A stretch of 64,000 bases of DNA, taken from the NCBI GenBank assembly GCA_035623825.1, contig DASPSR010000007.1, forward strand, positions 192,001-256,000. The letters run 5' to 3'. Below the pieces are notes generated by a model. It was not told where the DNA came from, did not search any database, and saw only the letters and a program-made list of their open reading frames with translations. The translations under genes were made by a program, and so were the position numbers. Positions 8,775 to 33,738 of this stretch are shown piece after piece. The first letter of the stretch is position 1, and every line of letters starts with the position of its first letter. Source of the DNA: Nitrospirota bacterium (GTDB lineage Bacteria; Nitrospirota; UBA9217).

Positions 8775-8861
8775 GCCGAAGTGGTGGAACTGGTAGACGC
8801 GCTGCGTTCAGGGCGCAGTGGGAGCAATCCCGTGGGGGTTCGAGTCCCCCCTTCGGCACCA
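8775..8861 (+). tRNA. tRNA-Leu (anticodon CAG)
   Basis: Acceptor stem GCCGAAG/CTTCGGC plus ACCA, D-loop GGAACTGGTAGAC, anticodon arm CTGCG-TTCAGGG-CGCAG, long variable arm, T-loop GTTCGAGTC; 87 nt. Confidence 0.97.
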
Positions 8862-25589: not shown

Positions 25590-25870
25590 ACACGGGCTCG
25601 GCGTTGTATCCGACTTCGAATATCCTTCCCAGTTCACTGCCTAAGGATAGAGAAATATAATTTTCTTATGAAATTTATTAATGTTATTTTCGCTTGATTT
25701 TTTACCGTTCGGTTGCTAATATGCACCCTCCACGAAAGAAAGTCAAATTTGAGTATATTTTGATCTTGCCAAGTCAGGTTACAAAAAGTAACATAGCCTG
25801 CGGTGTGGCAATATCCCGGAAAAATTACTATAATCCGAAGTTATGGCTTGTCCGCATATAATGACTGAGG

Positions 25871-26377
25871 ATGGGGGAGGTTGTGACCGTGCTCCAGCAA
25901 GACGATCTTAAAAAAGTTGATGCTGTCCTCGAGGACACCGCAGGCCAGCGTGGTGTTCTCATCTCAGTGCTCCAAAGGGTCCAGGAGAAGGTAGGTTATC
26001 TGCCCGAGGAGGCGATGAAGATGATCGCGGAAAGGATGTCACTTTCCCTGACGAACGTCTACGGCGTAGCTTCATTCTACAAGCATTTCCACTTTAAGCC
26101 CCGGGGCAGGAACATCGTTAAGGTCTGTATGGGTACCGCATGCCACGTGCGGGGAGCCAAGGCGGTGCTAACCGAGATGGAGAACAAACTCGGGATCAAA
26201 GAGGGCGATACCACGAAAGACCTTTCGGTCACGCTCGAGACTGTCGGGTGTGTAGGGTGCTGCGCCCTTGCGCCCGTTGCCACGATCAACGATCAAGACC
26301 TTTACGGAGAATTGACTCCAAAAATGGTTGATGACATCATCGGTACAGTGAGGAGTGAACATGGAACTCACGTATAA
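25871..26377 (+). CDS. NuoE/HydC-like [2Fe-2S] subunit
   Basis: LISVLQRVQEKVGYLP, VYGVASFY..F, VCMGTACHVRG, VGCVGCCALAP; true start may be GTG 25889. Confidence 0.92.
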   Translation: MGEVVTVLQQDDLKKVDAVLEDTAGQRGVLISVLQRVQEKVGYLPEEAMKMIAERMSLSLTNVYGVASFYKHFHFKPRGRNIVKVCMGTACHVRGAKAVLTEMENKLGIKEGDTTKDLSVTLETVGCVGCCALAPVATINDQDLYGELTPKMVDDIIGTVRSEHGTHV

Positions 26378-28259
26378 ACGGTTGGAAAGCGTCAAGGATC
26401 TCGATGCCCTGCGGCAAAAGCTCCGGGAAGAACACAAGCAAAGCGATGCCCACCGCGTGCGCGTCTGCTGCGGAACAGCCTGTCAGGCAACAGGATCCAA
26501 AAAACTCATAGAGCAATTCGAAAAGGAAGCGGCCCAGAAGCAGGTGAAGCTCGAGATTGTGAAGACTGGGTGCCAAGGTTTTTGCCAGCGTGGCCCGGTC
26601 ATGATCCAGGAGCCGCAGGAAATCTTCTATCAGAAGGTAAAAGTGAGCGATATCCCCGCCTTGTTCTCCACCTCTGTACTTCATGGGATGCCCTACCGCA
26701 AGCAGCTCTACCGTGAGTTCTCGCTATCCGATCCGAACATCGAGATGCAGGACATCCCGTTCTACAAGAAGCAGAAGCGCGTTGCTCTTCACAGGAACGG
26801 ATTTGTCGATCCCTGCAATATCTACGATGCCATCCGCGAGGACGGTTATGCCGGTTTATCGAAGGCGCTGACTGAGATGAAGCCCGACGAGGTTATCGAA
26901 GTCATCAAGAAGTCAGGCCTCCGCGGCCGAGGCGGCGCAGGCTTCCCTGCCGGCCTCAAATGGGAGCATACAAAGAAATCGGGTTCTAAGGTCAAGGCCG
27001 TTGTGTGCAACGGAGACGAAGGCGACCCGGGCGCGTTCATGGACCGCTCGGTCATGGAGGGAGACCCCCACTCCGTGCTCGAGGGGATGCTCATCAATGC
27101 TTATGCCATAGGTGCGCAACACGGCTACATCTACGTGCGACATGAGTACCCCCTTGCCGTGAAGAACCTTGGCGTGGCCATAAACCAGGCGCGGGCCATG
27201 GGGCTACTCGGCAAGAACATCCTGGGTTCTGGACTCGACTTCGACATCGAAATCAAAGAAGGTGCCGGCGCATTCGTCTGCGGCGAATCCACAGCGCTCA
27301 TCGCCTCCATCGAGGGCGAACGCGGCATGCCGCGGCCCCGGCCGCCGAGGCTCTCGGAAGCTGCAGGCGGCCTCTGGAATATGCCAACGAATCTCAACAA
27401 TGTCGAGACCTTTGCCAACGTCCCGACGATCATCACGAAGGGGCTGGACTACTATACCAAGATCGGCACTGAGAAATCGAAAGGTACAAAGGTATTCGCC
27501 TTAACCGGCAAAATCAAAAACACAGGCCTCATCGAAGTGCCGATGGGGATTACGCTTCGAGAGATCATCTTCGACATCGGCGGCGGCATGCTGAATCCCG
27601 AGAAACAATTCAAAGCAGTTCAGACCGGAGGTCCCTCTGGCGGATGCATTCCTGCCCAGTTCCTCGACATGGCAGTTGACTTCGACTCGCTCACGGCCGT
27701 TGGCTCTATGATGGGATCGGGCGGCATGGTGGTCCTGGACGAAGAGGACTGTATGGTGGATGTGGCTAAGTTCTTCCTGTCCTTTACCAAGAGTGAGTCT
27801 TGCGGCAAGTGCCCACCGTGCCGTATCGGTACTTGGCAGATGTATGATCTCTTGGACAAGATAACCACCGGACGAGGCGAAAAGGGCGACATCGAGCGGC
27901 TCGAGAAGATGGGCAAGATGGTTGTTGCCGGTTCGCTCTGCGGTCTCGGGACCAGCGCTCCGAACCCCGTGCTCTCGACCATCCGTTACTTCCGCGAGGA
28001 ATACGAGGAGCATGTGAATGATAAGTACTGCCGCGCCAAGCGATGCCAGGGACTCGGCACCTTCCGCATCCTGCCAGAGCACTGCATCCTCTGCGGGCTG
28101 TGTAAACAGGCATGCGCCTTTGATTCCGTGGTGGAGCTGAGGGACCGGTTCTACATCGACCAGGACTACTGCACCAAATGTAAGGCCTGCTACTCTGTCT
28201 GCCCCACGCAGGCCGTTGTGATCGAAAAAGGAGGGGCTCATGTCGCAGCAAGAAAATAA
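26361..28259 (+). CDS. NuoF/HydB-like FMN- and NAD(H)-binding subunit with bifurcating-type architecture
   Basis: N-terminal [2Fe-2S] (CCGTAC...GCQGFC), GLRGRGGAGFP, CNGDEGDPGAFMDR, GAFVCGE, GGPSGGC, ESCGKCPPCR...LCGLG, H-x5-C-x4-C, two C-terminal CxxCxxCxxxC; AGGAG RBS. Confidence 0.93.
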   Translation: MELTYKRLESVKDLDALRQKLREEHKQSDAHRVRVCCGTACQATGSKKLIEQFEKEAAQKQVKLEIVKTGCQGFCQRGPVMIQEPQEIFYQKVKVSDIPALFSTSVLHGMPYRKQLYREFSLSDPNIEMQDIPFYKKQKRVALHRNGFVDPCNIYDAIREDGYAGLSKALTEMKPDEVIEVIKKSGLRGRGGAGFPAGLKWEHTKKSGSKVKAVVCNGDEGDPGAFMDRSVMEGDPHSVLEGMLINAYAIGAQHGYIYVRHEYPLAVKNLGVAINQARAMGLLGKNILGSGLDFDIEIKEGAGAFVCGESTALIASIEGERGMPRPRPPRLSEAAGGLWNMPTNLNNVETFANVPTIITKGLDYYTKIGTEKSKGTKVFALTGKIKNTGLIEVPMGITLREIIFDIGGGMLNPEKQFKAVQTGGPSGGCIPAQFLDMAVDFDSLTAVGSMMGSGGMVVLDEEDCMVDVAKFFLSFTKSESCGKCPPCRIGTWQMYDLLDKITTGRGEKGDIERLEKMGKMVVAGSLCGLGTSAPNPVLSTIRYFREEYEEHVNDKYCRAKRCQGLGTFRILPEHCILCGLCKQACAFDSVVELRDRFYIDQDYCTKCKACYSVCPTQAVVIEKGGAHVAARK

Positions 28260-28851
28260 ATGCCCGGTGACGGCCACAAAGCTCAAGCTGGAGTTCTTCT
28301 ATAACGACGATTCCAAGGACGGCATGTGTTCCAAGTGCCACCCCTGTAAACTGGGGATCTATGATGCCGTCAAGATCCTTGAAGCGATCCAGGAGGGGAA
28401 GGGACTCGATATCTATCCGGCCCTGCTCAAGCGGATTGCCGTGGAAGTGAAAGACGGCGGAATGTGCAAGAAAGGCAAAGACCATGCAGATATTCTTGCT
28501 GCCTTCCTCAGAGATTTCGAATCGGATCTGCAAAGGCATATCAAAGGCGTATGCACACATCATGTCTGTGCCCGACTGGTCCGGTACGAGATCATCCCCG
28601 AGAGATGCACTATGTGCGATAAGTGCCGCGTCGTCTGCATGGATTCCGCAATCGAGGGCCAAAAATTGGTCCCGGGAAAAACAGGTTTTACTCCGTACCG
28701 GATCAGGCAGAAACGCTGTACCCACTGCGGTGAGTGCATCAAGGTCTGTCCCGAAGGTGCGGTGGTCATCTCTGACGCGGCGCTTGCAGGCGAGGAGAAG
28801 CCGGTGCATCCCGTAAAACATACTGTCGGGACCTGCCCCTTGAAGTATTGA
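28240..28851 (+). CDS. Fe-S protein: NuoF C-terminal [4Fe-4S] domain plus 2x[4Fe-4S] ferredoxin
   Basis: CSKCHPCKLG...MCKKG, H-x4-C-x4-C, CTMCDKCRVVC, CTHCGECIKVCP; overlaps the upstream gene and has a GGAGG RBS. Confidence 0.85.
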   Translation: MSQQENKCPVTATKLKLEFFYNDDSKDGMCSKCHPCKLGIYDAVKILEAIQEGKGLDIYPALLKRIAVEVKDGGMCKKGKDHADILAAFLRDFESDLQRHIKGVCTHHVCARLVRYEIIPERCTMCDKCRVVCMDSAIEGQKLVPGKTGFTPYRIRQKRCTHCGECIKVCPEGAVVISDAALAGEEKPVHPVKHTVGTCPLKY

Positions 28852-28945
28852 TCGTGCATTACACACAGCGGCCGTTCCGAGCGAGCGGCTAGCTGCTGGG
28901 TGTGACCCACTATAACTGAGCGAAACTGATTTGCTGGAGGAAGCT

Positions 28946-31090
28946 ATGACGACCAAGATGGTGAATATGGAATTTGACGGAAAGACCGTATCGGTCCCGG
29001 AGGGAATGACGCTCGTGGACGCTGCGGCGACCGTGGGGATTCATATCCCGAACCTTTGCCATATCAAGGAGCTACGCGGCGTGGGCGCCTGCCGCATGTG
29101 CATGGTGGAGATCGAGGGCATGAAAGCACCGATCACGGCCTGCACAACCCGGACCAAGGAGGGCATGAAGGTCCAGACCAGCACCCCCAAAGTCGAGGAG
29201 ATTCGGAAGTTTGTGACCGACCTGGTCCTCTCGTTTCATCCCCTTGACTGCATGACCTGCCCCAAGGCAGGAGCCTGCGACCTTCAGAGGTACGCCGCCG
29301 ATTTGAAAATTCAGGAGTCGTCATTCGGCAGGAAGAGCTTTAACTACGAACTGAACGACCGAAGCCCGTTCATCACCATCGACAACAACTACTGCATCCT
29401 CTGCGGCAGGTGCGTGCGGGTCTGCAAGGAACAGAATACGAATGTGCTCGACTTCATGGGCCGCGGCATCACCACCAAAGTTACGACGGCGCTGGACAAG
29501 CCTCTCCACGAGTCCGGCTGCACCTTTTGCGGAAGCTGCGTCGATGCCTGTCCAGTGAACTCAATCATGGAGCGCGACCGCTGGCAGCACGGTAGGGAGT
29601 GGGACCTTGAGAAGTTGGACACAGTCTGCACTGCCTGTGGGTCGGGCTGCAGCGTGATCACAAGCAGCAGGGGCGGAAAGATCGTGAAGGTAAACGCGAA
29701 GGAAGACAACGGCTACATTTGTGTCATCGGACGTTTCGGTTTTGACTCCCTGAGGGCCGCGAACCGTATCACCACGCCAATGAAGAGGCAGGACGGCAAG
29801 CTCATACCCACGACCTGGGAAGATGCCGCTGCTATCGCGGGTGACGCCCTTCGGAAAGCAGGTGAGAACGCCGGGTTCATCGCGGCGGGCTCGCTGACGA
29901 ACGAAGAGGCATATGCAGTTCGGGCGCTTGCCCGTGAAGTAACCGGGAGCGACGCTATCAGCACGCCGGCATCGCTGTACGCGGGCGGTATGATATCGGC
30001 CCTTCGCACGGTCTACAGCGATGCGGGCATCAACATCGCGTCCCATGCAGACCTCAAGTCAGCTGACCTGGTAGTGCTGATCGGCGCCGATCCGTCCCAG
30101 AAGAAGCAGGCCCTCCAGGAAGTGGAGGTCATGATCCGCAGAAGGGCCCAGGCCGGGGCAAAAGTCATCGTCGTGAACCCGGAGAAGATCGAACTCGCCT
30201 CACATCAGAATGCCATTCACCTCCAGCTCACGGAAGGGACCGATACAGTCCTTCTCGCGGGGCTTATGAGCGCGGCGATCGCCGAGGGTGCGACCTCCTC
30301 GGCAAAAGGGCTGGATGCGCTCAAGAAATCCTTGGTGAGCGCGGAGAACGCCGCGTCAATATCCGGCGTTTCCGCCGAGGCGATCGCGATGGCAGGCAAG
30401 GCTTACGCCGCAGCAAAGCAGCCGGTCGTTGTAATCGGGACCGGGATTGCTGCAAATGAAGATGCCTCGATTCAGGCACTCAACCTAGCGCTTCTTAAGA
30501 GCGCAGGCGTTGTGCCCCTCATGCTGGAGGCGAATTCCCTGGGCGTAATGCAGATGGGGCCGGGCGCTGCGACGGGGAACAAAGCCGACAGGGGATACAG
30601 CGAAATGAAGTCAGGCATGAAGGCCCTTTACATTGCCGGGAACATGATGGAGCCTGATTTTAAGTCCGATTTCATCATTGTCCAGGCGAGCCATTTCACG
30701 CCGCTCGCGGAAAAAGCGGACCTGGTACTTCCCATGGCCGCACTCTACGAAAAAGAGGGGACGATTGTAAATACCTATGGCATGCTCAAGAATATTGCCC
30801 AGGCCCAACAGCCAGCGGGAGAGGCAAAGGACGGAGCGGAGATCGCCTCGAAGATATCAGCGGCGGTGAGCAAGGCCAAGGCCTTCACGCAGAAAGACGT
30901 CGCTGCTGCGGTCAGAAAGGTCAAGGCGAAGAAACTCGGCGCGGGATCCTTCAAGCCGGTGGCTGCCAAAGCCGCAAAGCCCTATGGCATTTCGGCGACT
31001 AGGCTGATCATGGCAATGAACCAGGGGATGCTGTCGGATTCCGGCGTGGCCAAGGTCATGGTTGTCAGGCAGCCGGTGCTCAAGGGATAG
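28946..31090 (+). CDS. NuoG/FdhA-like multi-Fe-S subunit (molybdopterin oxidoreductase fold, no metal ligand)
   Basis: [2Fe-2S] LCH...GACRMC...TAC; HPLDCMTC....C; CILCGRCVRVC; CTFCGSCVDACP; CTACGSGC...C.IGRFG; degenerate Moco domains. Confidence 0.88.
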   Translation: MTTKMVNMEFDGKTVSVPEGMTLVDAAATVGIHIPNLCHIKELRGVGACRMCMVEIEGMKAPITACTTRTKEGMKVQTSTPKVEEIRKFVTDLVLSFHPLDCMTCPKAGACDLQRYAADLKIQESSFGRKSFNYELNDRSPFITIDNNYCILCGRCVRVCKEQNTNVLDFMGRGITTKVTTALDKPLHESGCTFCGSCVDACPVNSIMERDRWQHGREWDLEKLDTVCTACGSGCSVITSSRGGKIVKVNAKEDNGYICVIGRFGFDSLRAANRITTPMKRQDGKLIPTTWEDAAAIAGDALRKAGENAGFIAAGSLTNEEAYAVRALAREVTGSDAISTPASLYAGGMISALRTVYSDAGINIASHADLKSADLVVLIGADPSQKKQALQEVEVMIRRRAQAGAKVIVVNPEKIELASHQNAIHLQLTEGTDTVLLAGLMSAAIAEGATSSAKGLDALKKSLVSAENAASISGVSAEAIAMAGKAYAAAKQPVVVIGTGIAANEDASIQALNLALLKSAGVVPLMLEANSLGVMQMGPGAATGNKADRGYSEMKSGMKALYIAGNMMEPDFKSDFIIVQASHFTPLAEKADLVLPMAALYEKEGTIVNTYGMLKNIAQAQQPAGEAKDGAEIASKISAAVSKAKAFTQKDVAAAVRKVKAKKLGAGSFKPVAAKAAKPYGISATRLIMAMNQGMLSDSGVAKVMVVRQPVLKG

Positions 31091-31186
31091 ACGTATACAG
31101 TAAAAAATGCATTTTAAGCATCATTATCAGGTACGGAAGCAAAAGAGGGACGCTGAGCCCATTTAGGAAAGGAGTAACAAACGGTT

Positions 31187-33169
31187 ATGAGAGAGGACCA
31201 GAAATCAGTTGACCCGGCCGCACAAGTGCTGTTGAAACATGCCGGAGAGATGAAAATAGAAACTTCCTTTGAACGAGCCGAAAAGCTTAAACCATGCCCC
31301 ATCGGGCACCAGGGCGCCTGCTGCAAGATGTGCCATATGGGTCCCTGCCGCCTCGTGGGCAAAGAGGATGAGGCCGAGGGTGTATGCGGTGCGACGCTGC
31401 CGGTGGTGACAGCAAGAAACTTCGCCCGGATGGTGGCTGCAGGAACGGCGGCGCATTCGGACCATGCGAGAGACCTGGCGAATACCTTGCTAGCAGTGGG
31501 AAGGGGCGAGGCGAAGGACTTCAAGGTGAAGGATGTGCGTAAGCTGAACCGTGTTGCCGGCTATCTCGGCATCAATGTCGAGGGGAAGTCGGTGAACAAG
31601 GTGGCCGAAGAGGTCGCGCTCAAGTTCCTGGAGCAGTTTGGCCAGCAGCACGGCACGCTTGCGTACCTCGGCCGGGCTCCAAAAAAGCGGCAGGAAATCT
31701 GGAAGAAGCTCGGGATCGCACCGCGGGCAATTGACCGCGAGTGTGTTGAGATGCTGCACCGCACGACCATGGGTGTCGATCAGGAAATGAACAATATCAT
31801 GCTTGGCGCCATGCGCGCGGCCCTGGCCGATGGGTGGGGCGGGTCCATGATGGGAACCGACATCTCAGATATCCTCTTCGGGACGCCAAAACCGGTCAGA
31901 ACCAATGCCAGTCTCGATGTGTTCATGGAGGATCACGTGAACCTCGTAGTACACGGCCACGAGCCGTCATTCGCCGAGATGCTGGTCATCGCGTCAGAGG
32001 ATCCGGAGATCGAGGCCTACGCGAAGTCGAAGGGGGCCAAAGGGGTAAAGCTCGTCGGCATGTGTTGTACGGCGAATGAAATTCTGATCCGTCATGGAAT
32101 TGCCACAGCGGGCGGCTTTTTGCAGCAAGAACTCGGGCTCCTCACGGGCTTGGTCGAGGCCATGGTGGTGGACGTGCAGTGTATCATGCCCGCTATCGGC
32201 CAGCTGTCAAAGAAATTTCATACCAAGATCGTAACGACGACGCCAAAAGGGAAAATGAAGGATGCCATCCATATCGAATATGATGAGCATCATGCGCTCG
32301 ACCTCGCCAAAAAGGTCGTGCGGCTAGCCATCGACAATTTCCCGAACCGCAAGAAGGAGCTTGTGTCTCCGGCCAAAGTACGACCGGCCGACCTGATCGC
32401 GGGCTTCTCTCATGAGTACATTGAGTACATGCAGGGAGGGCAGTATCGCGGCTCATTCAGGCCCTTGAATGACGCCATTATCGCCGGTCGCATCCGAGGC
32501 GTGGTCGGTCTCGCAGGCTGCAATAACCCGAGGATCAGTCAGGACAGCATGCATAACTTCCTTTCTCGCGAACTGATCAAGAACGATGTGCTTGTCGTCC
32601 AGACCGGCTGCTCAGCCATGGCGTCGGCCAAGGCGGGTTACATGACACCTGAGAATGCTATGGAGAACGCCGGCCAGGGCCTTCGTGAGGTCTGCGAAGC
32701 CATCGGTATTCCACCGATACTCCACATGGGATCCTGTGTGGATAACTCGCGCATTTTGACCGTAGCTACGGCGATTGCCGAGGAAGGCGGTCTCGGCGAT
32801 GATATCGGCGGACTACCGGCAGTCGGTATCGCGCCCGAGTGGATGAGCGAGAAAGCAATCGCTATCGGCACCTACCTCGTGGCGTCCGGTGTCCCGATCA
32901 TATTCGGCGCAGGGTCCCCCGTGAGTGCAAGCAAGACGTTGAAAGATCTAATGGAGAACAAGTGGTGGGACATGGTGAATGCCGGATTCTACTTCGAAGA
33001 AGATCCGGGCAAGATCCTTGAGCTGGCGCTGAAGCTCATCGACACCGCTCGGGAGAAACTGAAGCTCCGCAGGTACGAACCGGGGCGGTTCGGTACGGAA
33101 CGCGTACTGCTCGATATGGCAGCAAGACGTGCGGGTACGTTTGCCACACCACACGGTGTGGACATCTAA
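31187..33169 (+). CDS. cooS: Anaerobic Ni-containing carbon monoxide dehydrogenase catalytic subunit
   Basis: CPIGHQGACCKMCHMGPC...VCG (D and B clusters), AAHSDHARD, HGHEP, GMCCTANE, VDVQC, GCNN, TGCSA, GSCVDNSR, EWMSEKA. Confidence 0.96.
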   Translation: MREDQKSVDPAAQVLLKHAGEMKIETSFERAEKLKPCPIGHQGACCKMCHMGPCRLVGKEDEAEGVCGATLPVVTARNFARMVAAGTAAHSDHARDLANTLLAVGRGEAKDFKVKDVRKLNRVAGYLGINVEGKSVNKVAEEVALKFLEQFGQQHGTLAYLGRAPKKRQEIWKKLGIAPRAIDRECVEMLHRTTMGVDQEMNNIMLGAMRAALADGWGGSMMGTDISDILFGTPKPVRTNASLDVFMEDHVNLVVHGHEPSFAEMLVIASEDPEIEAYAKSKGAKGVKLVGMCCTANEILIRHGIATAGGFLQQELGLLTGLVEAMVVDVQCIMPAIGQLSKKFHTKIVTTTPKGKMKDAIHIEYDEHHALDLAKKVVRLAIDNFPNRKKELVSPAKVRPADLIAGFSHEYIEYMQGGQYRGSFRPLNDAIIAGRIRGVVGLAGCNNPRISQDSMHNFLSRELIKNDVLVVQTGCSAMASAKAGYMTPENAMENAGQGLREVCEAIGIPPILHMGSCVDNSRILTVATAIAEEGGLGDDIGGLPAVGIAPEWMSEKAIAIGTYLVASGVPIIFGAGSPVSASKTLKDLMENKWWDMVNAGFYFEEDPGKILELALKLIDTAREKLKLRRYEPGRFGTERVLLDMAARRAGTFATPHGVDI

Positions 33170-33191
33170 GGAGAACGATAAGCATTGTCTC

Positions 33192-33221
33192 AAGGAGAGG
33201 CCTTCGCGCCTCTCTTTTTTT
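33192..33221 (+). terminator. Rho-independent terminator after cooS
   Basis: AAGGAGAGGC-loop-GCCTCTCTTT running into a T tract. Confidence 0.8.
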
Positions 33222-33284
33222 ATGGTGCGCGCTTCTGGAAAGATAATTTTTTTATCACGAGAGCGCCCATATTACCGTATTGAT

Positions 33285-33302
33285 TTGTGACGCACATCAC
33301 AA
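33285..33302. promoter_or_regulatory. CRP/Vfr- or Rex-type palindrome
   Basis: TTGTGA-CGCACA-TCACAA perfect inverted repeat in the intergenic region upstream of the pil operon. Confidence 0.6.
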
Positions 33303-33430: not shown

Positions 33431-33458
33431 TTGACAAGCAAGTCTTTTTAAGTATCAT
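33431..33458 (+). promoter_or_regulatory. sigma70 promoter of the HTH-pilMNOPQ operon
   Basis: TTGACA-N16-TATCAT, followed by palindrome TATACT-T-AGTATA (33465-33477). Confidence 0.55.
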
Positions 33459-33510: not shown

Positions 33511-33711
33511 ATGGTTACACGCAAAAGTCTTAAAAAATACAAAACCAAAGAGATATGCGATCGATTCGATATTTCCCGCGCGACACTCTTCAGATGGGAG
33601 AGCGAAGGTCTCCTTGTGGGTGTCGGACGTGACTGGCGGGGATGGCGCGTGTACGATGACAGAAACCTGAAGAGCATCGAAAGAATTATGAAGAGCAAGA
33701 ACGCCACGTAA
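33511..33711 (+). CDS. Small MerR-family helix-turn-helix protein
   Basis: YKTKEICDRFDISRATLFRWESEGLL...RDWRGWRVY MerR-type winged HTH; no effector domain. Confidence 0.85.
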   Translation: MVTRKSLKKYKTKEICDRFDISRATLFRWESEGLLVGVGRDWRGWRVYDDRNLKSIERIMKSKNAT

Positions 33712-33738
33712 TGCAGTTTGGGTATTGCCGGAGCAAGA

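What the first reader, a model, noticed from the sequence alone, without database searches (positions are those of the whole stretch)
25871..33221. Candidate electron-bifurcating CO dehydrogenase: HydABC-like module in an apparent operon with CooS
Seen: five co-directional genes (HydC-like, HydB-like, Fe-S protein, NuoG/HydA-like, cooS) with overlaps or gaps under 100 nt. The only clear terminator follows cooS. The HydB homolog has the N-terminal [2Fe-2S] domain, GDPGAFMDR, GAFVCGE, GGPSGGC, a His/Cys metal site (EEHVNDKYCRAKRC) and two C-terminal [4Fe-4S]. Established: this architecture marks bifurcating HydABC-type enzymes rather than Complex I NuoF or NADH-only enzymes, and CooS has all D/B/C-cluster ligands. 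Inference: no H-cluster, NiFe or Moco site is present, so CooS is the only catalytic input, giving a complex that couples CO/CO2 to both NAD(H) and ferredoxin. As far as I recall, CODH-linked members of this family have been predicted from genomes but not characterised biochemically.
Basis: partly seen in the sequence, partly recalled or inferred. Interest (0 to 1): 0.88.

Follow-up and report, generated by a model that had tools for sequence, protein, structure and literature searches.

The report
HydABC-type redox module wired to acetyl-CoA-pathway CODH
A Nitrospirota bacterium keeps the CO dehydrogenase of its acetyl-CoA (Wood-Ljungdahl) pathway next to a flavin and iron-sulfur module of the electron-bifurcating hydrogenase type, which suggests that CO2/CO conversion is tied to both NADH and ferredoxin; such enzymes have been predicted but never tested.

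Summary
Five co-directional genes lie at 25871-33169: HydC/NuoE-like, HydB/NuoF-like with all the extra clusters, a 203-aa Fe-S protein X, a NuoG/HydA-like wire without a pterin site, and CooS. They overlap or sit less than 100 nt apart, and one strong terminator follows cooS.

HydB scores 611-738 bits against solved bifurcating HydB/NfnB/Stn chains and at most 407 bits against non-bifurcating homologs. Module genes lie beside CooS in 70 of 80 related Nitrospirota loci, in two different gene orders.

The main correction is that this CooS is the acetyl-CoA-synthase-type CODH (AcsA).
- In 43 of the 80 loci it follows acsB directly, as acsE-D-C-B-cooS-C-B-X-A.
- Its best solved relatives are CODH/ACS subunits.
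- The window's genome has acsEDCB elsewhere without a cooS.
- Its only other cooS is distant (about 30% identity).

So the likeliest function is an NAD(H)- and ferredoxin-coupled CODH serving the Wood-Ljungdahl pathway, not a free-standing CO oxidiser.

"Codh-Bfu" was already predicted in print (Schut et al. 2022) for Firmicutes, with a different architecture. I rate this a new variant of a known kind. It is uncharacterised biochemically. Co-transcription and physical binding are not shown.

The parts
25633..25834 (+). Promoter-like sites upstream of the first gene (25633-25661, 25766-25794, 25805-25834)
   Evidence: Consensus scan only. The region holds 15 sites against a mean of 4.7 in shuffles. 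None has been tested.
25871..26377 (+). HydC/BfuC/NuoE-like [2Fe-2S] subunit, 168 aa (P0005)
   Evidence: PF01257 170 bits. NF005722 NuoE 149 bits against a cut-off of 141. Found beside CooS in relatives.
26355..28259 (+). HydB/BfuB-like FMN/NAD(H) subunit, 634 aa (P0001). It has an N-terminal [2Fe-2S] domain, the NuoF-type [4Fe-4S], a His/Cys site and two C-terminal [4Fe-4S] motifs.
   Evidence: Pfam domains and motifs in the translation. Best solved relative is 7t2r_B at 738 bits; non-bifurcating homologs reach at most 407 bits. It is distinct from the genome's Fdh- and Nuo-linked paralogs in the tree.
28240..28851 (+). X: 203-aa Fe-S protein (P0004), a stand-alone paralog of the C-terminal ~170 residues of HydB. 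It carries one NuoF-type [4Fe-4S] motif, a His/Cys site and two ferredoxin-type [4Fe-4S] motifs.
   Evidence: PF10589 plus Fer4_7. It aligns to residues ~430-600 of HydB/NfnB chains. Invariant residues in 25 orthologs: C30, C33, C36, C76, H100, C105, C110, C123/126/129/133 and C160/163/166/170.
28931..31090 (+). A: NuoG/HydA/BfuA-like electron wire, 719 aa from the TTG start (likely start ATG 28946) (P0002). It has one [2Fe-2S] and four [4Fe-4S] motifs and a degenerate pterin domain.
   Evidence: Pfam. PDB matches: FdsA 6tg9_A 255 bits, and NiFe-hydrogenase subunit A 7t2r_A 237 bits over residues 9-634. The Sec/Cys-His of FdhA is replaced by Tyr-Ala and there is no Molydop_binding domain.
31091..31186 (+). 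A-cooS spacer with the AGGAAAGGAG ribosome-binding site
   Evidence: Sequence read. No promoter- or terminator-like site here. Relatives carry a conserved TATAAT-like box and a hairpin in the equivalent spacer.
31187..33169 (+). cooS/acsA: Ni,Fe-CODH catalytic subunit, 660 aa (P0003), of the acetyl-CoA-synthase-associated type
   Evidence: TIGR01702 599.5 bits against a cut-off of 478. Best PDB matches are the CODH/ACS CODH chains 6ytt_B at 597.7 bits and 9fzy_B at 596.4 bits. Cluster-ligand Cys and His are invariant in 25 orthologs. Orthologs sit directly after acsB in 43 of 80 loci.
33192..33217 (+). Intrinsic-terminator-like hairpin plus T-run closing the unit
   Evidence: 10-bp stem, 5 G-C pairs, followed by TTTTTAT.

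Best explanation
The five genes encode one redox unit.

Composition:
- C ([2Fe-2S]) and B (FMN, the NAD(H) site, one [2Fe-2S], three [4Fe-4S] and a His/Cys site) form a Bfu/HydABC-type core, the kind that handles NAD(H) and ferredoxin together.
- A, a NuoG/HydA-like chain of five Fe-S clusters with a dead pterin domain, and X, an extra three-cluster arm copied from the C-terminal third of B, wire that core to the Ni,Fe-CODH CooS.

Role of CooS: it is the organism's acetyl-CoA-synthase partner (AcsA). [quoted passage not shown]

Proposed reaction: 2 CO + 2 H2O + NAD+ + 2 Fd(ox) <-> 2 CO2 + NADH + 2 Fd(red) + 3 H+. It would run towards CO when acetyl-CoA is made and towards CO2 when acetyl-CoA or CO is oxidised.

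Shown here: gene content, cofactor motifs, nearest solved relatives, conserved linkage and the relation to acs genes.

Inferred: physical assembly, use of ferredoxin, stoichiometry, direction, and the hand-over of CO to ACS, which is encoded on another contig.
For: 1. Architecture. B has every extra domain that PMC9304861 says separates Bfu cores from non-bifurcating NuoF, FdsB and HoxF homologs (passages; domains and motifs). The nine best solved relatives score 611-738 bits: NiFe hydrogenase subunit B, HydB chains including one titled 'Electron bifurcating hydrogenase subunit HydB', NfnB and others. FdsB scores 407 bits and NuoF at most 372.

2. A is full-length alignable to subunit A of the NiFe hydrogenase 7t2r (residues 9-634). 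It has lost the Sec/Cys-His and the Molydop_binding domain that the genome's own FdhA keeps. CooS is therefore the only catalytic site in the unit.

3. Linkage. Of the 80 best CooS loci from genome contigs (of 256 confirmed), 70 have module genes beside cooS, and 58 have all four. There are two orders: C-B-X-A-cooS (25 complete, 4 cut) and cooS-C-B-X-A (33 complete, 8 cut). The 63 cooS-linked B sequences and the window's B lie on the other side of a branch with 100% SH-aLRT support from the same genome's Fdh-linked and Nuo-linked B paralogs.

4. ACS link.
- In 43 of 80 loci acsB lies directly upstream of cooS. L041 reads acsE-acsD-acsC-acsB-cooS-C-B-X-A with the same Pfam architecture.
- The best PDB hits of CooS are CODH/ACS CODH chains.
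- The window's genome has acsE-D-C-B on contig C22 without a cooS.
- Its only other cooS (C10) is about 30% identical and has a different nearest solved relative.
- In the window's family, 15 of 18 relatives have cooS with X 2-4.5 kb upstream, and all 15 have acsB on another contig or at least 368 kb away. Two lack both genes. 13 of the 15 have no second cooS above the family cut-off.

5. Short contigs identical to B, X, A and cooS occur in two peat metatranscriptome runs. This is only a weak hint of expression, because DNA carry-over is not excluded.
Against: - No experiment exists, and no transcript bridging the A-cooS spacer was seen.
- In this family cooS and the module lie away from acsB, so the ACS link here rests on orthology and on gene counts in incomplete MAGs (the window's genome is 89.65% complete).
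- The module is not obligatory for CODH/ACS in the phylum. Five of 80 loci have at least 3.7 kb of room but no module gene beside cooS (L036, L039, L049, L075, L078). Relatives G029 and G021 have acsB-cooS followed by other genes.
- Relatives carry a conserved TATAAT-like box in front of cooS, so cooS may also be made on its own.
- CO oxidation (E0' -520 mV in Table 1 of PMC9304861) can reduce both NAD+ and ferredoxin without bifurcation, so the energetic need for such a core is not obvious.
- Fd dependence is inferred from sequence only.
Confidence: 0.5

Rival explanations
1. Stand-alone bifurcating CO dehydrogenase, which is the first reader's reading and the 'Codh-Bfu' of Schut et al. The complex oxidises free, possibly trace, CO and reduces NAD+ and ferredoxin. 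In this family it no longer serves ACS.
For: In the window and in 29 of 80 loci the unit stands apart from the acs genes, with its own promoter-like sites and terminator. PMC9304861 argues that bifurcation could allow use of extremely low CO concentrations (passage).
Against: 13 of the 15 family relatives that have this unit possess acsB but no second cooS above the family cut-off. ACS would then have no CODH. Orthologs in sister lineages sit inside the acs operon. The nearest solved CODHs are ACS-associated.
Confidence: 0.2
2. NAD(H)-only coupling. C-B-X-A is a plain diaphorase that links CODH to NAD+/NADH without ferredoxin, as in non-bifurcating NAD-dependent formate dehydrogenases and hydrogenases.
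For: CO is a strong enough reductant to reduce NAD+ directly (potentials in Table 1 of PMC9304861). Sequence features alone have never been proven sufficient for bifurcation.
Against: B keeps the N-terminal [2Fe-2S] and C-terminal di-cluster domains that non-bifurcating homologs lack. It scores far closer to bifurcating chains than to FdsB or NuoF.
Confidence: 0.12
3. Mere neighbourhood. C-B-X-A works without CooS, for example as an NADH:ferredoxin module for another enzyme such as the FdhA on contig C60 that has no B/C genes beside it, or for a hydrogenase.
For: A second Sec-type FdhA with FmdE on C60 has no adjacent B/C genes. Physical binding is unproven.
Against: Linkage to cooS survives a change of gene order and about 35% sequence divergence. 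The C60 FdhA has its own NuoG-like N-terminus, so it would not need A or X. The NiFe hydrogenases on C42 have their own small subunits, and one cytochrome b gene lies between the two sets. No FeFe hydrogenase was found in this 89.65%-complete genome.
Confidence: 0.08

Closest known systems
Codh-Bfu, the predicted CODH-linked member of the Bfu/HydABC family (Schut et al. 2022, PMC9304861; passages read)
   Same: A BfuABC-type gene set shares a cluster with a Ni-CODH gene. The proposed third substrate is CO. It is uncharacterised biochemically.
   Different: The paper reports 4 sequences, only in Firmicutes, as a six-subunit 'Type 2' enzyme. The CODH genes lie between bfuB and bfuA, and BfuA lacks two clusters. 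Here the host is Nitrospirota and the order is C-B-X-A-cooS (or cooS-C-B-X-A). A has five cluster motifs and a dead pterin domain. The only extra Fe-S subunit is X, a copy of the B C-terminus. The CODH is the ACS partner. The paper's supplementary tables could not be opened, so I cannot exclude that such clusters are listed there.
NiFe-HydABCSL, the electron-bifurcating NiFe hydrogenase (PDB 7t2r/7t30)
   Same: It is the best solved match of B (738 bits), and a full-length match of A (237 bits, residues 9-634). The logic is the same: an ABC core plus a separate catalytic subunit.
   Different: Its catalytic partner is a NiFe hydrogenase (HydSL), not CooS, and it has no X-like subunit.
Bacterial CODH/ACS (AcsA-AcsB; PDB 6ytt, 9fzy, 1mjg)
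   Same: CooS scores 597.7 bits against 6ytt_B, 596.4 against 9fzy_B and 458.8 against 1mjg_A. Orthologs lie in acsE-D-C-B-cooS operons.
   Different: From my own recall, not tested here: known CODH/ACS enzymes exchange electrons with free ferredoxin, and none has been shown to carry a flavin/NAD(H) module. In the window cooS is not next to acsB.
CooS-CooF-FNOR clusters (Geobacter sulfurreducens, Clostridium spp.; PMC4703632, passages read)
   Same: A Ni-CODH is encoded with an Fe-S protein and a pyridine-nucleotide oxidoreductase. CO-dependent NADP+ reduction was seen in extracts.
   Different: FNOR is a single FAD/NAD(P) protein unrelated to NuoF/HydB, and that CODH type is not ACS-linked.

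Membership tests
Bfu / HydABC-type electron-bifurcating family (as defined in PMC9304861) | BfuB with a NuoF-type FMN/NAD(H) domain and its [4Fe-4S] | tested here: met
   PF01512 161.6 bits and PF10589 111.4 bits. The GDPGAFMDR, GAFVCGE and GGPSGGC motifs are present.
Bfu / HydABC-type electron-bifurcating family (as defined in PMC9304861) | The extra BfuB clusters that non-bifurcating homologs lack: N-terminal [2Fe-2S] and C-terminal two [4Fe-4S] | tested here: met
   PF01257 match at residues 28-103, and Fer4 matches at 572-625 with two CxxCxxCxxxC motifs. These align to the same regions of 7t2r_B and 7q4v_B. This is motif-level evidence only.
Bfu / HydABC-type electron-bifurcating family (as defined in PMC9304861) | BfuC with one [2Fe-2S], and a BfuA homolog that feeds electrons | tested here: met
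   C: PF01257 170 bits. A: Fe-S motifs invariant across four homologs and a full-length match to 7t2r_A.
Bfu / HydABC-type electron-bifurcating family (as defined in PMC9304861) | Coupled reduction or oxidation of NAD(H) and ferredoxin with a third substrate | not testable with these tools
   This needs anaerobic enzymology.
Codh-Bfu as described for Firmicutes (PMC9304861) | CODH genes sandwiched between bfuB and bfuA; six subunits A-F | tested here: not met
   The order is C-B-X-A-cooS and there are five genes. Relatives have cooS-C-B-X-A.
Codh-Bfu as described for Firmicutes (PMC9304861) | Type 2 BfuA lacking two of its clusters (A3, A5) | tested here: not met
   A has one [2Fe-2S] and four [4Fe-4S] motifs, including the Molybdop_Fe4S4 one. 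Mapping these to the paper's cluster numbers is my inference, because its figures are not held.
Codh-Bfu as described for Firmicutes (PMC9304861) | BfuB in the paper's clade 49 | tested here: inconclusive
   The best solved hit of B is the NiFe enzyme, which the paper places mainly in clade 49. No tree with the paper's sequences could be built.
Anaerobic Ni,Fe-CODH catalytic subunit (TIGR01702) | Score above the curated cut-off, and ligands of the D, B and C clusters | tested here: met
   599.5 bits against 478. C37, C45, C46, C49, C54, C67, H258, C294, C332, C445, C475 and C517 are invariant in 25 orthologs. Assigning them to individual clusters is from recall of the C. hydrogenoformans CODH-II numbering.
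ACS-associated CODH (AcsA of bacterial CODH/ACS) | Encoded with acsB/acsCD, and nearest to known CODH/ACS CODH subunits | tested here: inconclusive
   In the window cooS is not next to acsB; acsEDCB is on contig C22. Orthologs are directly after acsB in 43 of 80 loci. The best PDB hits are CODH/ACS chains. Physical association is not testable here.
Respiratory complex I N-module (NuoEFG) | Equivalog scores, and adjacent membrane-arm genes | tested here: not met
   NuoF TIGR01959 scores 477 against 558.65 and NuoG TIGR01973 347.7 against 470. The flanks are glgC-like and pil genes. The genome's nuo cluster is on C24 with its own E/F/G-like genes.
NAD-linked formate dehydrogenase (Fdh-Bfu / FdsABG) | Catalytic Sec/Cys-His and a Molydop_binding domain in the A subunit | tested here: not met
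   A has Tyr-Ala at the position of the U-H dyad of FdhA, and it lacks PF01568.

The most novel reading that the evidence does not exclude
CODH/ACS of these Nitrospirota is built as a CODH/ACS-Bfu supercomplex. Electrons from NADH and reduced ferredoxin are confurcated through C-B-A-X into the CODH. [quoted passage not shown] In reverse, acetyl-CoA oxidation would yield NADH plus reduced ferredoxin. X would be a new adaptor arm derived from the HydB C-terminus that docks the core to the CODH.
Probability: 0.3. Interest if true: 0.8.

Novelty: new variant of a known kind. Interest (0 to 1): 0.58.

Why it matters
How the very low-potential CO2/CO step of the Wood-Ljungdahl pathway is powered sets the energy budget of acetogens, sulfate reducers and subsurface autotrophs. 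A CODH/ACS hard-wired to an NAD(H)/ferredoxin bifurcating core would be a new way to balance that budget.

It would also be the first CODH example with which to test the proposed Bfu mechanism using a third substrate more reducing than both NAD and ferredoxin.

The clade is widespread in groundwater, soil and peat Nitrospirota MAGs. One relative (G030) is held as a single-contig genome with the acsB-cooS-...-X order, so the prediction may be testable in culture if that genome comes from an isolate.

Tried and rejected
**Complex prediction.** Complex prediction of CooS (25-row alignment A1) with X (25-row alignment A2) gave no verdict: score 0.00 in both runs, and the controls were not run. It is evidence neither way. 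A CooS dimer with X and A would exceed the 1000-residue limit.

**Transcription.** Two peat metatranscriptome runs (X1, X2) hold only 0.11 and 0.10 of the sampled words. Laid on 25600-33300 they give short contigs of 150-315 nt. Some have no differences, in B, X, A and cooS; others come from relatives at 90-95% likeness. No piece covers or bridges 31091-31186, and 28427-28940 and several other bins are uncovered. Co-transcription is therefore neither shown nor refuted, and DNA carry-over is not excluded.

**Rfam.** A search of the whole window at gathering thresholds found only a tRNA at 8775-8858 and no riboswitch near the unit.

**Hydrogenase or FDH partner elsewhere.**
- Contig C42 has two NiFe(Se) large subunits, each with its own small subunit, and one cytochrome b gene lies between the two sets.
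- C29 has an Ech/FHL-like membrane complex.
- No FeFe hydrogenase was found.
- FdhA on C22 has its own C/B genes.
- FdhA on C60 has none beside it but carries its own NuoG-like N-terminus.
I rejected this as the main reading because the linkage to cooS is conserved.

**Complex I reading.** Rejected: the equivalog scores are under their cut-offs and there are no membrane genes nearby.

**Literature.** Searches found no biochemical study of a CODH-linked HydABC/Bfu enzyme and no description of the Nitrospirota acs-cooS-C-B-X-A operon.
- 'Codh-Bfu' occurs only in PMC9304861.
- The phrase 'bifurcating carbon monoxide dehydrogenase' in PMC6203783 is loose wording for a ferredoxin-reducing CODH.
- PMC13056359, PMC10203281, PMC8671834 and PMC12827605 were searched for terms only and say nothing on this module.
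Subscription journals are not covered.

**Not done.** I did not search for CooC or another Ni-insertion factor. I built no tree with characterised HydB sequences, because none could be imported; the PDB score ranking stands in for it. I did not examine what surrounds cooS in L036.

Full report
**What is there.**
The window is part of contig C13 of a 3.24-Mb, 67-contig genome that is 89.65% complete. Its closest public relatives are MAGs labelled Nitrospirota or Thermodesulfovibrionales.

At 25871-33169 five genes lie head to tail on the + strand, with overlaps of 23 and 20 nt and gaps of 79 and 96 nt. Upstream is a divergently oriented glgC-like gene. Downstream, after a 10-bp-stem terminator-like hairpin at 33192-33217, come a short ORF and pilMNOPQ. 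The scan found no promoter- or terminator-like site in the 96-nt spacer before cooS.

**The five proteins.**
- Gene 1 is a NuoE/HydC-type [2Fe-2S] protein (PF01257, 170 bits).
- Gene 2 is a 634-aa NuoF/HydB homolog. Besides the FMN/NAD(H) domain and its [4Fe-4S], it carries an N-terminal thioredoxin-like [2Fe-2S] domain and two C-terminal CxxCxxCxxxC motifs.
- Gene 3 (X, 203 aa) matches only the last ~170 residues of HydB/NfnB chains (at most 80 bits). Across 25 orthologs it keeps four Cys of a NuoF-type [4Fe-4S], an H-x4-C-x4-C site and two ferredoxin-type motifs. Its 323 database homologs are named at most 'ferredoxin', 'hypothetical protein' or by the Pfam domain.
- Gene 4 (A) has the NuoG/HydA set of one [2Fe-2S] and four [4Fe-4S] motifs, plus a pterin-like domain. 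It lacks PF01568, and it has Tyr-Ala where the genome's own selenocysteine FdhA has U-H. It aligns over residues 9-634 with subunit A of the solved NiFe hydrogenase 7t2r.
- Gene 5 is a Ni-CODH catalytic subunit (TIGR01702, 599.5 bits against a cut-off of 478). Its cluster-ligand residues are invariant in 25 orthologs.

None of the five proteins has an H-cluster, NiFe or pterin catalytic domain.

**Is the B/C pair of the bifurcating kind?**
PMC9304861 defines the Bfu family by a BfuBC core with FMN and six Fe-S clusters. It states that non-bifurcating homologs (FdsB, Nqo1, the Ralstonia and Syntrophomonas enzymes) lack the extra BfuB clusters (passages). The window's B has those domains.

By sequence it scores:
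- 738 bits against 7t2r_B;
- 696-706 against 7q4v_B, 8a6t_B ('Electron bifurcating hydrogenase subunit HydB') and 9mqx_B;
- 671-682 against 9bov_B, 8oh5_B and NfnB 9n5u_B;
- 636 against 7p5h_B.

Against FdsB 6vw7_B it scores only 407 bits, and against NuoF chains at most 372. Which of these entries were shown to bifurcate is partly my recall. Membership in the architectural sense is met. The activity itself cannot be tested here.

**Does the linkage recur?**
A scan of species genomes with CooS gave 256 confirmed loci, and the best 80 were kept. tblastn with the other four proteins gives:

| Arrangement | Loci |
|---|---|
| C-B-X-A-cooS, complete (CooS 84-93% identical) | 25 |
| the same, cut by a contig end | 4 |
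| cooS-C-B-X-A, complete (CooS 63-66% identical) | 33 |
| the same, cut by a contig end | 8 |
| no module gene beside cooS | 10 |

Of the last 10, five have less than 2.3 kb of flank. The other five have room: L036, L039, L049, L075 and L078.

So 70 of 80 loci show the linkage, in two gene orders. A quick maximum-likelihood tree used 63 cooS-linked B sequences plus the genome's five PF01512 hits. All cooS-linked B sequences fall on one side of a branch with 100% SH-aLRT support. The paralogs on C22 (formate-dehydrogenase cluster), C24 (nuo cluster) and C27 fall on the other side, with C9 as the outgroup. The tool warns that the paralogs are long branches. C9 is RnfC, because rnfD lies next to it. 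The loci were chosen through CooS, so the result is that their B genes form one orthologous set, not that every such B has a CooS.

**The correction: this CooS is the ACS partner.**
- In 43 of the 80 loci acsB lies directly upstream of cooS, usually preceded by acsC and acsD.
- In L041 the order is acsE-acsD-acsC-acsB-cooS-C-B-X-A, with the same domain architecture as in the window.
- The best solved relatives of the window's CooS are the CODH chains of CODH/ACS entries 6ytt_B (597.7 bits) and 9fzy_B (596.4). They rank ahead of stand-alone CODHs such as 6b6v (565), the 'Carbon monoxide dehydrogenase 2' entries (462-475) and 1jqk (447).
- The window's genome has acsE-acsD-acsC-acsB on contig C22. 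What follows acsB there is a second HydC/HydB pair, a selenocysteine FdhA and formate-THF ligase, not a cooS.
- The only other cooS (C10) is about 30% identical. Its nearest solved relative is 7b7q (476 bits), which I recall as the atypical CODH-V of C. hydrogenoformans. It sits by unrelated genes.

In the window's family, 15 of 18 relatives have cooS with X 2-4.5 kb upstream on the same contig. All 15 have acsB, on another contig in 13 and 368 or 584 kb away in two. Only one of the 15 has a second cooS above the family cut-off. Two genomes lack both cooS and acsB, and one fragmented genome has acsB only.

The simplest reading is that one ancestral operon, acs-cooS-C-B-X-A, was split in this family. 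[quoted passage not shown]

**Limits of that reading.**
- The module is not universal. Relatives G029 and G021 have acsB-cooS followed by other genes, and G019, G028 and G024 have a lone cooS.
- The genomes are MAGs, so a missing gene is never proof of absence.
- In the spacer before cooS, 6 of the 9 relatives aligned share TATAAT, and five of them have it as TTTTTG-N8-TATAATGC. Most also share a short hairpin and the ribosome-binding site. The window has TTATCAGGTA at that place. cooS may therefore have a promoter of its own in relatives.

**Mechanism proposed.**
B binds NAD(H) at FMN, and the B/C clusters form the bifurcating core that also deals with ferredoxin. A is the wire, as in the NiFe enzyme. 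X is a duplicate of the cluster-rich C-terminal arm of B; I infer that it extends or docks the wire to the CODH. CooS interconverts CO2 and CO, and CO passes to or from ACS.

By analogy with HydABC the reaction would be 2 CO + NAD+ + 2 Fd(ox) <-> 2 CO2 + NADH + 2 Fd(red).

With the potentials listed in PMC9304861 (CO2/CO -520 mV, NAD -320/-280 mV, Fd -420/-500 mV), free CO at standard pressure needs no bifurcation. The authors suggest a role at very low CO. I add, as inference, that CO kept very low by ACS raises the effective potential of the couple into the range between NADH and ferredoxin. Coupling to both carriers makes sense there, in either direction.

The genome also has dsrAB, Rnf, a nuo cluster with a HydB-like NuoF, and uptake hydrogenases. 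This fits an anaerobe that runs the pathway with tight energy margins.

**Known or new.**
A CODH-linked Bfu class is already in print as a prediction: 4 sequences, Firmicutes only, six subunits, CODH genes between bfuB and bfuA, 'Type 2' (PMC9304861). NuoEFG-type COGs were noted among the genes that neighbour Wood-Ljungdahl-type Ni-CODH genes (PMC6344411).

In six searches I found no paper that describes this Nitrospirota unit, the X subunit or the acs-cooS-C-B-X-A operon, and none with any biochemical test. Supplementary tables and subscription journals were out of reach.

I rate it a new variant of a known, still hypothetical, kind.

**Verdict.**
The best explanation (confidence 0.5) is a Bfu-type NAD(H)/ferredoxin module wired to the CODH of CODH/ACS. 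The stand-alone CO oxidiser (0.2), NAD-only coupling (0.12) and mere adjacency (0.08) remain open.

Noticed in passing
own genome contig C24 (L090:7824-18991): The nuo (complex I) cluster has a 596-aa HydB-like NuoF with an N-terminal [2Fe-2S] and C-terminal Fer4 domains. It lies between a NuoE-like and a NuoG-like gene and is followed by nuoH, I, J, L and M. This matches the 'Nuo-Bfu' that PMC9304861 predicts for Nitrospirae.
   Followed up: partly
own genome contig C22 (L091:3776-17255, minus strand): A Wood-Ljungdahl operon reads acsE-acsD-acsC-acsB, then a HydC-like (241 aa) and a HydB-like (599 aa) gene, an FdhA with an in-frame TGA (read as Sec at residue 347), a cNMP-binding protein and formate-THF ligase. 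It looks like an Fdh-Bfu fused into the acs operon at the place where sister lineages have cooS-C-B-X-A.
   Followed up: partly
own genome contig C60 (L095:4132-7451): A second FdhA with a NuoG-like N-terminus is split at a likely Sec codon and is followed by FmdE. It has no HydB/HydC genes beside it.
   Followed up: no
own genome contig C10 (L088:4618-8826, minus strand): A second cooS (648 aa, about 30% identical to the window's; best PDB match 7b7q at 476 bits) lies about 950 nt upstream of a 437-aa Fer4 plus SCP2/alkyl-sulfatase-C protein. Only one of the 18 family relatives searched (G017) has a similar copy.
   Followed up: partly
L037, L062, L073, L083, L085, L086: Some relatives carry two tandem B genes in the cooS-linked module. 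In the tree one copy from each of L037, L062, L083 and L086 forms its own clade, which suggests an old duplication.
   Followed up: partly
L101 (G004:C98:4000-12342): One family relative has a second C-B-X-A set (68-87% identical) that runs into a contig end. Only one cooS was found in that genome. It could be a second module, a strain variant or binning contamination (5%).
   Followed up: no
spacer before cooS in L011, L012, L017, L019, L022, L034 (aligned with window 31071-31200): A TATAAT box occurs in 6 of the 9 relatives aligned, as TTTTTG-N8-TATAATGC in five of them. A GGGGAT...ATCTCC hairpin occurs in about five. The box is not conserved in the window itself. It may be an internal promoter or a regulatory element.
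   Followed up: partly
window 33512-33712 (+): A short ORF between the cooS terminator and pilM is preceded by a near-consensus promoter-like site at 33431-33458 (TTGACA-16-TATCAT). Read by eye, its product looks like a small helix-turn-helix protein. I did not run it against any library.
   Followed up: no
L036: One fairly close CooS (81% identical) has 10 kb of flank on both sides with no module gene and no acs gene. It is the clearest exception to the linkage.
   Followed up: no
window 8775-8858 (+): A tRNA gene is the only Rfam match in the window at gathering thresholds.
   Followed up: no
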